Source: Mobula birostris (taxonomy: Eukaryota). Taken from it: a stretch of DNA of 64,000 nt. Below, piece after piece: positions 21,001 to 24,000 of this stretch (the first letter of the stretch is position 1; every line of letters begins with the position of its first letter). Position numbers: made by a program. The stretch lies in contig NC_092374.1 of NCBI RefSeq assembly GCF_030028105.1, positions 175,422,057-175,486,056 of the forward strand, read 5' to 3'.

Positions 21001-24000
21001 CAGCTCTTCATCTATCAGTTCTTGGTCATGGGATGCCAAAACCTCTTCAACAACATCTTCGTCAGCTTCACAAGCCAAACTCACGTTGTCCTTACTTCGT
21101 TCACCATGATCAAAATGCTTTATTGTGTCTAGTTTTACACTAAGTGTAACACCTTATGAGCTCTTTCAAGCTTTCCAATACCTCAGAACTCATCTTGCAA
21201 ACGGCTGCTCACAGGCATGTGTTAAAGCAATGCTGTTCCGAATCTGAGGGGACAGTGGCTGCTTGGGGCGCGCGCTGCCTTTTATCGTGCTCTAGATTTT
21301 TTTCATAACAGTGAAAACACCTGTTAGGCGAAAACGGTACTAATGTAGGTCTTTCATAACAGTTTCGTAAAGCAAACGTTCAAAAAGCGGGGGACACCTG
21401 TATCAGAGCATGTTGATAACTACTTGAAAGTGAGTCCATAGATTGTGGAATGAGTTCTGTTTGAGTGAGTGAAGTCAGACCCTCTGGTTCAAGGGTCTAA
21501 TGTGGGATCTAAGGCTCCAGTACCACCACCCTGATGGTAGCAGCAAGAAGGGAGCATGGCCTGCATGGAAACTGCTTTCATGCAGCAGTGCTTGTATGTA
21601 ATTTTCAAATTGTGCCTTTCCCCAAAACTTCCACGTCCCTCCCTTCCCTGCCTTGCAAACAGCTGACCCCCTAGTATTATCTCTGTCCAGGATCTTGACA
21701 GGCACTCCCTGAATTAGTTCCCACAACCCTTGCCCCCAATGTGGAAACAGCTGGAACAGTGACATAGGCACCAGTGGGCTGGGGTAGATTTGCTATTTAT
21801 GGCAACAACTGCCCCTCCTGCTCCCCCCCCCTCCAGTTGGCTCAGGCCTTTGGTTATGGGATGGGAGTGTCGGGGACCACTCGGGAGGTGCAGGTTGCAC
21901 AGGTCAGTGTGGGTGGGAAGAGATGACCTGCCATCCTCCGGGAGAGTGGCTCCTCTGAACCAGGGAAGTGGTGTCTGGTGTGGGAATAACTGTCTTTCTT
22001 CCAGGGGCGAACTCTGTTTACCACAGGCAGGGCTGTCTGTTTAACAGTAGTGCCACCGGAGATGGACCTTCTTCTATCAGGATTACTACAACAGAGAGCT
22101 GATTTTCCTACTATGACTTTGACCAGAAGAAGTTTGTGGCAGCAAAGCCATGGATGCGGGGGAATGGGGACAGGTGGAACAAGGCTGAAGCGGGCAGCGA
22201 CGTACCAGGGCGGGATCCGTGTGTGTGAGAACAACATCCCATTGTTGAAAAATGGGTGCTGCCCCGGAGAGGTAAGTGGTATTGTGGTGTGAGGAAGCAA
22301 ATGGTGGCTCCCTGGAACTGTTCCAATGCTGGGGAGGTCCCCAGTATCTAGGCCATCCTGGGTGGGAGATACGGTATGTACACTGCAGCCCTAATGGCAG
22401 CTGTTAACACTGAAACCATAGCCCCTCATCTCCTCCTTTTCTCTGCCCCCCACTCCACCCCCCCCCCCCAGGGTTTAATCTACCAGGCTCTAGTTTCTAA
22501 CCCTGCTTTAAAAAAAACTAGTGGGTGGCCTGGCATTCCAGATTTGGAGGCCTGAATCGTGAACCAAACTGCAGAGACTGGGGGTTCTGTGGGTCAGTTA
22601 CGGAGCACAGACAAGCCTTTGGCCCACTGTTTCAATGCTGACCAGTCCACATTTCTACTAACACCAAATGAGATGCCTGATACATTTGGTGTGTCAGTTT
22701 AAGGCAGGATATACCTGTAATGGGTAGTGCAACAGATGTTCACTAGGTTATTTCCCAGAATGGTGGCCTTCTCTGCCCAGAAGGATTGCTGGTTGTTCTG
22801 AATTCCTGGAATGGATTGCTATTTAAAGGGATTGAGTATGAAATTGGTGCAGAAGTAGAAAATAAGCCATTGTCTAACTGAATAATAGTTGGCACAGGGA
22901 TGAAAAGCCTTCTGTTTCATTCCCTGGCTTTGAACCTGCCCAAGTGTATTGTCCTTGTCTTTGTCTTTCTCCCCACCACACCCCCCCCCCACCATGTGGC
23001 CATTTCTTGACTGAAGTCAATTAGTTAGTAGCTTCCCAATTCATTCCTTCCTTTATTCATGATCCAGTGGTAACAGTTCCCTTTTATGATCTAGTCATGT
23101 CAGTCAAAAATGCATCATACAGTTTCTTTTCCCAGTTTTGGAACAGAAACAGACCTTTTTGACCTCATAACTGCAACAAACCAAATGCCAGAAGTAAACT
23201 AAATGCAATGCTCTGCAGATGCTGGGGTCAAAGCAACACTCACAACATACTGGAGGAACTCAGCAGGTCGGGCAGCATCCGTGGAAACGATCAGTCAATG
23301 TTTCAAGCCGGAACTCTTCGTCAGGACTGAAGAGGGAAGGGGCAGAGGCCCAATAAAGAAGGTGGGGGGAGGGTGGGAAGGAGGAGGCTGGTAGGTTCCA
23401 GGTGAAAAACCAGTAAGGGGAAAGATAAAGGGGTGGGGGAGGGGAAGCAGGGAGGTGACAGTCAGGAAAGGTGAAGAAGGAATAGGGGAAAACACAATGG
23501 GTAGTAGAAGGAGGCAGAACCATGAGGGAAGTGATAGGCAGCTGGGGGAGGGGGCAGAGTGAAATAGGGGAAGGGAATTACCAGAAGTTGAAGAATTATG
23601 TTCATACCAAGGGGCTGGAGACTACCTAGACAGTATACCCCCTCTTCAGTCCTGACGAGGGGTTCCAACCTGAAACGTTGACTGATCGTTTCCACGGATG
23701 CTGCCTGACCTGAGTTCCTCCAGTGTGTTGAAAAGTAAACTAAATCTCTTCTGCCTGTACACAAGTACCATCTGTCATTCCTTGTATATTCACATTGAAG
23801 TTACAGCTGTACCTGCTTCTAACATTCTCTTGATAGTAAGTTCCAGGCAACTGCCCCTCTGCTTATAATTTTAAAAACTGTCCTGTACATCTATCAGGTC
23901 TCCCCTTGATTTCTGAGTGGGTTGGGAGGGAAAGAAATCGGTTTGTCCAATCCCCTTGCCCTCACTGATGTAAATGGCATCCTAATGAGTCTCTTCACAC

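What the first reader, a model, noticed from the sequence alone, without database searches (positions are those of the whole stretch)
22005..22271. Four mutually compensating indels confined to the peptide-binding exon
Relative to the class II beta1 frame there is -1 at about 22061 (gga ga tgg), +1 in the T run at 22103-22106, +1 in the G run at 22192-22194 and -1 in the A run at 22248-22252. Net length is 267 nt, still in frame, but TGA stops arise at 22100 and 22226. All other exons and splice sites are clean. The most likely cause is consensus error where divergent alleles or paralogues defeat polishing: three indels are in homopolymers, and the window has many suspicious long G/C runs. The alternative is a real null allele, or an exon-2-specific pseudogenisation event such as gene conversion from a pseudogene.
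Basis: partly seen in the sequence, partly recalled or inferred. Interest (0 to 1): 0.68.

Follow-up and report, generated by a model that had tools for sequence, protein, structure and literature searches.

The report
Four frameshifts in ray MHC exon
The peptide-binding exon of a devil-ray MHC class II beta gene carries four one-base frameshifts in an otherwise perfect gene, a pattern that looks more like a local genome-assembly error than real gene decay, though only sequencing reads can settle it.

Summary
The window is not human. It holds one six-exon MHC class II beta gene of a mobulid ray. The closest protein is P0002 (Mobula hypostoma): 177 of 180 whole codons outside exon 2 are identical.

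Exon 2 (22005-22271, 267 nt, AG/GT) does carry exactly four one-base frameshifts, -1/+1/+1/-1, and TGA stops at 22100 and 22226 in the splice-defined frame. The fourth indel fits best at 22238-22242, not in the A run at 22248-22252.

Read frame-aware, the exon is a sound beta1 domain:
- It has no stops.
- It is 75/86 identical to P0002.
- It keeps 22 of 22 columns that are at least 90% conserved among 20 elasmobranch beta1 domains.

Ordinary neutral decay fits badly. Repeat pairs in the window show 0.04-0.05 one-base gaps per substitution, which gives a joint p of at most 0.005 for four one-base indels and no longer ones.

Best reading: a local consensus or polishing error (about 0.65). A real null allele remains possible (about 0.27). 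No reads and no relative's DNA were available, and no intact copy of this allele is in the protein collection.

The parts
8393..8515 (+). Promoter-proximal 25-bp tandem array. Each unit carries TGATTGG (inverted CCAAT, Y-box-like). A TATA-like 'tatttaaag' follows.
   Evidence: TRF: period 25, 5.0 copies, 72% matches. Six TGATTGG on the + strand between 8341 and 8500, five of them spaced exactly 25 bp apart. Sequence read. The Y-box reading is from recall.
8571..8667 (+). Exon 1: ATG and leader peptide (97 nt, ends in phase 1)
   Evidence: tblastn with P0002. Donor GT; 30 of 32 whole codons identical to P0002.
22005..22271 (+). Exon 2: beta1 (peptide-binding) domain, 267 nt, with four one-base frameshifts
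22061..22062 (+). Frameshift 1 (-1): codon 19 of beta1 retains only two bases (GA)
   Evidence: Frameshift-aware alignment; same place in 7 of 7 relatives aligned
22100..22102 (+). First TGA in the splice-defined frame. It would end translation after 31 beta1 residues.
22103..22108 (+). Frameshift 2 (+1): one extra base in TTTT (22103-22106) or CC (22107-22108)
   Evidence: placed at 22108 with P0002, P0010 and P0007, and at 22105 with P0003, P0005, P0015 and P0021
22192..22194 (+). Frameshift 3 (+1): one extra G in GGG
   Evidence: 22193 with P0002, P0003 and P0015. Other relatives place it between 22178 and 22199, or as two -1 events.
22226..22228 (+). Second TGA in the splice-defined frame
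22238..22242 (+). Frameshift 4 (-1): one base missing at the cccA/att junction (Ile-Pro-Ile codons)
   Evidence: Placements from 22236 to 22246 score 129-132 against P0002; the A run at 22248-22252 scores 122-126.
27751..28035 (+). Exon 3: beta2 Ig C1-set domain (285 nt)
   Evidence: Pfam C1-set E=1.5e-22. 93 of 94 whole codons identical to P0002; AG/GT. PDB class II beta chains at E about 1e-24.
32773..32889 (+). Exon 4: connecting peptide and transmembrane segment (117 nt)
   Evidence: 38 of 38 whole codons identical to P0002; AG/GT
45019..45048 (+). Exon 5: cytoplasmic tail (30 nt)
   Evidence: 9 of 9 whole codons identical to P0002; AG/GT
45708..45733 (+). Exon 6: end of the tail and the TAA stop (45731-45733)
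   Evidence: 7 of 7 whole codons identical to P0002; acceptor AG

Best explanation
The four one-base indels are most likely errors of the assembled consensus and are not present in the animal's DNA. The gene is an ordinary classical-type MHC class II beta gene of a mobulid ray. Its most polymorphic exon lies in a patch where consensus calling or polishing failed. A likely cause is that reads of the two divergent alleles (or of a paralogue) were mixed, or were drawn away to the other haplotype copy, so that short indels survived or were introduced. Shown: the indels are in the sequence, they are confined to exon 2, and the underlying coding sequence is undecayed. Inferred: that they arose in assembly.
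For: 1. Read frame-aware, exon 2 has 0 stops and is 75/86 identical to P0002. It keeps 22 of 22 columns that are at least 90% conserved among 20 elasmobranch beta1 domains, and 9 of those 22 lie in the two out-of-frame segments. The hallmarks that Almeida et al. 2020 list (PMC8010645, section 3.1 read) are present: the two Cys, Asn-19 (NSS) and Asn-82 among the 22 checked columns, and Trp-61 and Arg-93 by my own mapping of the and alignments.

2. The rest of the gene is intact. It has six exons summing to 822 nt, which gives 273 aa plus a stop, the same length as P0002. Every acceptor is AG and every donor GT. 177 of 180 whole codons outside exon 2 are identical to P0002, and a Y-box-like array and a TATA-like box lie upstream.

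3. Neutral decay fits badly. In 41 repeat-pair alignments within the window there are 0.048 one-base gaps and 0.082 longer gaps per mismatch. Even if 11 to 60 substitutions are allowed in exon 2, four or more one-base indels with no longer ones has a joint p between 0.0004 and 0.005. All four falling in exon 2 out of 822 coding nt has p=0.011.

4. The defect is local. The density of 4/267 = 1.5% compares with at most 0.17-0.18% one-base gaps per base in repeat pairs of at least 80% identity, and that figure is an upper bound for assembly error elsewhere in the window.

5. The failure is documented. Rhie et al. 2021 (PMC8081667, passages seen) state that short indels from consensus calling cause frameshift errors. 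They also report that one haplotype copy can attract all the polishing reads and leave the other unpolished, and give a gene with frameshift errors as an example (Extended Data Fig. 11a legend).
Against: - No reads, k-mers, transcripts or DNA of a relative could be consulted, so nothing shows directly that the bases are wrong.
- Four errors in 267 nt is far worse than the typical unpolished long-read consensus (Q30-35 in PMC8081667), so a special local failure has to be assumed.
- The runs involved are short (2-4 bases), not the long homopolymers in which accurate long reads usually err. If the assembly came from high-accuracy reads, such a cluster would be very unusual.
- No intact copy of this allele exists in the protein collection. 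P0002's 90% cluster has 1 member, the 'longer' search found only P0002 (1 hit among 59 candidates), and the 'near' search found nothing.
- The link to allelic divergence is an inference.
Confidence: 0.65

Rival explanations
1. It is a real null allele, or a very recently inactivated copy, of a class II beta gene. The four +/-1 slips are in the germline. Translation would stop at the TGA at 22100, and the transcript would probably be removed by nonsense-mediated decay (textbook rule, not tested).
For: The indels and stops are in the sequence as given. Elasmobranchs carry one to four class II beta copies, so a dead copy or null allele could be tolerated (PMC10751288, passage seen). The general one-base gap rate in the window is low, which argues against a sloppy assembly overall. 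No annotated protein matches this allele, as expected if annotators treated it as a pseudogene, though an unannotated assembly would give the same result.
Against: There is no other sign of relaxed constraint: 22 of 22 conserved beta1 columns are kept, there are 0 stops in the frame-aware reading, 177 of 180 codons elsewhere are identical to P0002, and all splice sites are intact. Four one-base indels with no longer ones has a joint p of at most 0.005 under the window's own indel spectrum, even on generous assumptions. A single event would have had to produce several slips.
Confidence: 0.27
2. Exon 2 was overwritten by gene conversion from an older class II beta pseudogene elsewhere in the genome, which brought in that pseudogene's indels.
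For: The defects are confined to exon 2, which is the usual conversion target in MHC genes (recalled, not tested here). Exon 2 differs far more from P0002 (11 of 86 residues) than the other exons do (3 of 180).
Against: An old donor should also carry substitutions at conserved sites, substitution stops and longer indels, and none is seen. The higher exon-2 divergence is what normal beta1 polymorphism gives. No second class II exon is present in the 64 kb: 41 proteins searched against 1693 ORFs hit only 7 ORFs, all in this gene's exons 1-4. This explanation only moves the improbability of four clean one-base indels to the donor.
Confidence: 0.05
3. The exon is functional as written, read in another frame or rescued by recoding. 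Frame 22005 is open through all 89 codons.
For: The frame starting at 22005 has no stop across the exon, and the open stretch runs 21990-22292.
Against: That frame does not fit the phase-1 junctions of exons 1 and 3. Its product resembles class II beta only in the segment 22194-22241, and it matches no Pfam family. The similarity to P0002 switches frame four times.
Confidence: 0.01

Closest known systems
P0002, 'H-2 class II histocompatibility antigen, E-S beta chain-like' of Mobula hypostoma (273 aa; name as given by NCBI/UniRef)
   Same: Same total coding length (822 nt, giving 273 aa). 177 of 180 whole codons are identical outside exon 2, and 75 of 86 in the frame-aware exon 2.
   Different: P0002 is an uninterrupted protein, whereas the window's exon 2 has four frameshifts. 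P0002 has Leu where the window and most elasmobranchs have Trp at beta61. Whether P0002 is an allele, a paralogue or an orthologue of the window's gene could not be determined.
Classical class II beta genes of cartilaginous fish (Almeida et al. 2020, PMC8010645; Verissimo et al. 2023, PMC10751288)
   Same: The domain plan, both Cys pairs, Asn-19, Trp-61, Asn-82 and Arg-93 match. Asn at beta33 is present, as reported for Myliobatiformes (window reading; Trp-61, Arg-93 and beta33 by my own mapping of those alignments).
   Different: The published sequences are intact. 'Pseudogene' and 'frameshift' occur 0 times in the main text of PMC8010645, and 'pseudogene' 0 times in PMC10751288. The supplements, which hold the nucleotide sequences, were closed.
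Frameshift errors in unpolished or mixed-haplotype patches of long-read vertebrate assemblies (Rhie et al. 2021, PMC8081667, passages seen)
   Same: Short indels produce frameshifts in an otherwise good gene, limited to a local patch, in a region where haplotypes differ.
   Different: The error density here (1.5%) is higher than the reported unpolished average. The sequencing technology behind this window is unknown. No read evidence was available.
Mammalian class II beta pseudogenes with exon-2 defects (e.g. HLA-DRB and DPB pseudogenes; recalled, from no call)
   Same: A class II beta gene disabled in or around exon 2.
   Different: Those pseudogenes are old and carry many kinds of defect in several exons. 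This gene is perfect apart from four one-base indels.

Membership tests
MHC class II beta chain (classical type, cartilaginous fish) | Membrane-proximal Ig C1-set (beta2) domain with its two cysteines | tested here: met
   Pfam C1-set E=1.5e-22 on the ORF holding exon 3. PDB class II beta chains at about 1e-24. 93 of 94 codons identical to P0002. Both Cys are visible in the translation.
MHC class II beta chain (classical type, cartilaginous fish) | Beta1 domain with Cys15/Cys79, the Asn19 glycosylation site, Trp61, Asn82 and Arg93 (list from PMC8010645, section 3.1) | tested here: met
   Met only in the frame-aware reading: 22 of 22 conserved columns, 0 stops. Trp61 and Arg93 are by my own mapping of the and alignments. 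In the splice-defined frame most of these residues lie beyond the first TGA or in shifted segments.
MHC class II beta chain (classical type, cartilaginous fish) | Leader / beta1 / beta2 / CP-TM / cytoplasmic exon plan with phase-1 junctions | tested here: met
   Six exons of 97+267+285+117+30+26 = 822 nt, all AG/GT. Junction codons were read.
MHC class II beta chain (classical type, cartilaginous fish) | Uninterrupted reading frame (a functional gene) | tested here: not met
   TGA at 22100 and 22226 in the splice-defined frame, and four frameshifts.
MHC class II beta chain (classical type, cartilaginous fish) | Match to Pfam PF00969 (MHC_II_beta) | tested here: inconclusive
   No match for the exon-2 readings, but also none for the intact P0002 at E up to 10, so the model does not reach these ray sequences. 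P0002 does align to an HLA-DQ beta chain across beta1 (E=1.4e-38, residues 37-258).
Assembly consensus or polishing artefact | Indel density locally far above the background of the same assembly | tested here: met
   4/267 = 1.5% against at most 0.17-0.18% one-base gaps per base in repeat pairs of at least 80% identity. All 4 indels fall in exon 2 out of 822 coding nt, p=0.011.
Assembly consensus or polishing artefact | The variant is absent from accurate reads or read k-mers of the same individual | not testable with these tools
   No reads and no eukaryotic DNA collection were available.
Pseudogene or null allele | A disabling lesion is present | tested here: met
Pseudogene or null allele | Signs of relaxed constraint beyond the lesion (lost conserved residues, other broken exons or splice sites, mixed indel sizes) | tested here: not met
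   22 of 22 conserved columns kept. 177 of 180 codons elsewhere identical and all splice sites intact. Only one-base indels, joint p at most 0.005.

The most novel reading that the evidence does not exclude
The four indels are real. That would make this a germline null allele (or a freshly dead copy) of one of only one to four classical class II beta genes in a mobulid ray. Ordinary decay is rejected, so it would have arisen in a single burst of +/-1 slips, for example error-prone repair synthesis at the exon-2 recombination or conversion hot spot. It would be a natural loss of a peptide-presenting chain, carried in a threatened group of rays.
Probability: 0.25. Interest if true: 0.5.

Novelty: not a real feature. 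Interest (0 to 1): 0.2.

Why it matters
If the indels are an artefact, the practical lesson is that this gene should not be scored as a pseudogene or as a gene loss. The exon most used for MHC diversity work is exactly where this assembly is least trustworthy. If the indels are real, a ray with few class II beta genes carries a null allele made by an unusual clustered-slippage event. That would interest MHC evolution and conservation genetics, but it would not be a new kind of system.

Tried and rejected
- **Pfam on the exon-2 readings and pieces.** No family matched. The result is uninformative, because the intact P0002 also lacks a PF00969 match. One search failed because one piece was under 20 residues; I resent it without that piece.
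- **Search for an intact copy of this allele.** I read exon 2 with X at the two TGA stops. The 'longer' search found only P0002 (1 hit among 59 candidates) and the 'near' search found nothing. P0002's 90% cluster has 1 member.
- **A second class II gene or exon in the window** that could act as conversion donor or paralogue. None found: 41 proteins against 1693 ORFs hit only 7 ORFs, all in this gene's exons 1-4. The larger ORFs elsewhere look like retroelement remnants by eye (not tested).
- **Repeat copies as a local error gauge next to exon 2.** No repeat-pair alignment covers roughly 21-22.9 kb, so only a window-wide baseline was possible.
- **Long G/C runs as a sign of error.** They lie in pyrimidine-rich, repeat-associated sequence and are not diagnostic.
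- **Bacterial promoter and terminator scan** upstream of exon 1. Nothing found, and the scan does not apply to a vertebrate.
- **Open frame from 22005.** Rejected as a functional reading because of the exon phases.
- **Papers on Mobula MHC.** The search for 'Mobula' plus 'MHC' gave 5 papers (4 listed), none about ray MHC judging by title and abstract.
- **First alignment script.** It timed out and was rerun in a faster form.

Full report
**What is in the window.** The window has no N and is not human. Translating the exon-3 region and searching the protein collection gave 41 proteins with E at or below 0.001 among 131 candidates. The best hit is P0002, a 273-aa protein named by NCBI/UniRef as a class II beta chain-like protein of Mobula hypostoma, 99% identical over beta2. 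Next come a stingray (91%), skates, a sawfish and sharks. The window therefore comes from a mobulid ray or a very close relative.

I compared five of these proteins to the window by tblastn and read the junctions directly. This gives one gene on the + strand:

| Exon | Coordinates | Content |
|---|---|---|
| 1 | 8571-8667 | ATG and leader |
| 2 | 22005-22271 | beta1 |
| 3 | 27751-28035 | beta2 |
| 4 | 32773-32889 | connecting peptide and transmembrane segment |
| 5 | 45019-45048 | cytoplasmic tail |
| 6 | 45708-45733 | end of tail, TAA at 45731 |

Every acceptor is AG and every donor GT. The lengths sum to 822 nt, which is 273 codons plus a stop, the same length as P0002. Outside exon 2, 177 of 180 whole codons are identical to P0002: 30/32, 93/94, 38/38, 9/9 and 7/7.

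No other class II exon lies in the 64 kb. 41 proteins searched against 1693 ORFs of at least 25 aa hit only 7 ORFs, all of them pieces of this gene's exons 1-4. The larger ORFs elsewhere look like retroelement remnants by eye (not tested).

**Checking the observation.** In the frame set by the splice phases (codons from 22007) there are two TGA stops, at 22100 and 22226. The frame from 22006 has six stops, and the frame from 22005 is open.

A frameshift-aware alignment of the exon to the beta1 of P0002 scores 371, against 219 when frameshifts are forbidden. It needs four events: -1 at 22061-62, +1 at 22108, +1 at 22193, and -1 at 22236-37. Identity is 75/86.

Counting frameshifts without a penalty gives these raw scores:

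| Frameshifts allowed | Exon 2 | Exon 3 (control) |
|---|---|---|
| 0 | 219 | 510 |
| 2 | 320 | 509 |
| 4 | 409 | 505 |
| 6 | 416 | 501 |

So there are two compensating pairs, no more and no fewer.

I tried 10 relatives. Three were dropped because my anchor motif was missing (P0016, P0017, P0023). Of the 7 aligned, 5 gave the same four events. P0005 and P0010, which are one residue longer in that stretch, gave two -1 events in place of the third +1.

The fourth does not sit in the A run. Placements between 22236 and 22246 score 129-132 against P0002, and the one-base loss at the cccA/att junction restores ...NNIPIVEKW... exactly as in P0002. The A-run placements score 122-126. The runs involved are only 2-4 bases long.

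**What the exon looks like underneath.** I aligned the beta1 domains of 20 elasmobranch proteins. These came from 24 taken (P0004 was left out because it lacks beta1), of which 4 were dropped for lack of my anchor (P0016, P0022, P0023, P0025). 22 columns carry one residue in at least 90% of these sequences. The frame-aware reading of the window keeps 22 of 22, has no stop, and 9 of those columns lie inside the two out-of-frame segments.

Almeida et al. 2020 (PMC8010645, section 3.1 read) list these hallmarks for chondrichthyan class II beta: Cys15, Cys79, Asn19, Trp61, Asn82 and Arg93, plus Asn33 in Myliobatiformes. The two Cys, Asn19 and Asn82 are among the 22 checked columns. Trp61, Arg93 and Asn33 I read from the alignments. 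The window has Trp at beta61 where P0002 has Leu.

The Pfam beta1 model is no help. It misses even the intact P0002, although P0002 aligns to an HLA-DQ beta chain across beta1 at E=1.4e-38.

**Real decay or artefact.**
- **Baseline from the window.** The window's own repeat pairs give an empirical indel spectrum. In 41 alignments (18,492 columns, 3636 mismatches) there are 175 one-base gaps and 298 longer ones, which is 0.048 and 0.082 per mismatch. The 17 alignments of at least 80% identity give 0.037 and 0.070.
- **Test of neutral decay.** Exon 2 differs from P0002 by at least 11 substitutions. I allowed 11 to 60, and generously treated all of them as decay after inactivation. Four or more one-base indels together with no longer indel then has a joint probability of 0.0004 to 0.005.
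- **Clustering.** All four falling in exon 2 out of 822 coding bases has p=0.011.
- **Local excess.** One-base gaps in repeat pairs of at least 80% identity amount to at most 0.17-0.18% per base. That bounds the assembly's general one-base error rate, and exon 2 has 1.5%.

The anomaly is therefore local and is not ordinary pseudogene decay. A local consensus or polishing failure explains it most simply. Rhie et al. 2021 (PMC8081667, passages seen) report that short indels from consensus calling cause frameshift errors. They also report that one haplotype copy can attract the polishing reads and leave the other unpolished, with frameshifts in a gene as the result. The abstracts of PMC8812927 and PMC12007338 (search listing) make the same general point for homopolymer-length errors and false pseudogenes. 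Exon 2 is the most polymorphic part of the gene, which is where two alleles differ most. The link to this exon's divergence is an inference.

**What speaks against the artefact.** Nothing here shows the bases to be wrong. The error density would be unusually high. The runs are short, and if the assembly derives from high-accuracy reads such a cluster would be rare. No intact protein of this allele is on record: P0002's 90% cluster has one member, the 'longer' search found only P0002, and the 'near' search found nothing.

Elasmobranchs have one to four class II beta copies (PMC10751288, passage seen), so a null allele or a dead copy is biologically possible. If it is real, translation would end at 22100 and the transcript would be a candidate for nonsense-mediated decay (textbook rule). 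Exon 2 is 267 nt with phase 1 on both sides, so skipping it would keep the frame (inference, untested).

**Verdict.**

| Explanation | Probability |
|---|---|
| Assembly artefact | about 0.65 |
| Real null allele or fresh pseudogene | about 0.27 |
| Conversion from an old pseudogene | about 0.05 |
| Functional alternative frame | about 0.01 |

**What stayed unchecked.** There was therefore no DNA-level comparison with the P0002 locus or with the other haplotype. The supplements of PMC8010645, which hold the chondrichthyan nucleotide sequences, were closed.

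Noticed in passing
window 8341-8530: Just upstream of the class II beta start codon lies a 25-bp tandem array (5.0 copies). Each unit carries TGATTGG (inverted CCAAT, Y-box-like). There are six such motifs on the + strand, five of them spaced exactly 25 bp apart, followed by a TATA-like 'tatttaaag'. A multiplied Y box in a class II promoter is unusual and might affect expression.
   Followed up: partly
window 22272-27750 (intron 2), e.g. 24391-24816 (+) and 25590-26493 (-): The 5.5-kb intron 2 holds remnants of a retroelement, with an ORF that looks like a GIY-YIG nuclease and ORFs that look like reverse transcriptase, broken over several frames (Penelope-like by recall; not tested against any library). 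Introns of 13.3, 5.5, 4.7 and 12.1 kb stretch the gene over 37 kb.
   Followed up: no
window 22458-22469, 26692-26709, 26842-26861, 28461-28475, 45372-45424: There are long C or G runs of 10-20 bases: 8 of the 12 homopolymers of at least 10 bases are G or C. They sit at pyrimidine-rich, repeat-associated sequence. The runs at 26692 and 26842 have opposite orientation, about 130 bp apart. Whether their lengths are accurate cannot be judged without reads.
   Followed up: partly
P0002 (Mobula hypostoma protein) compared with window 22172-22174: The annotated Mobula hypostoma protein has Leu at beta61. The window and most of the 20 aligned elasmobranch beta1 domains have the peptide-contacting Trp there, so at this position the 'broken' exon looks more canonical than the annotated protein.
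   Followed up: no
window 4219-5968 and 37692-39448: Two copies of a LINE-like element in opposite orientation are 90.4% identical over 1.78 kb. This is the youngest repeat pair in the window, and I used it as part of the indel baseline.
   Followed up: partly
window 21854-22390 (- strand) and 21990-22292 (+ strand, frame of 22005): Long open frames (178 aa antisense, 100 aa sense in the wrong phase) run across exon 2. They have no family match and are taken as chance.
   Followed up: partly
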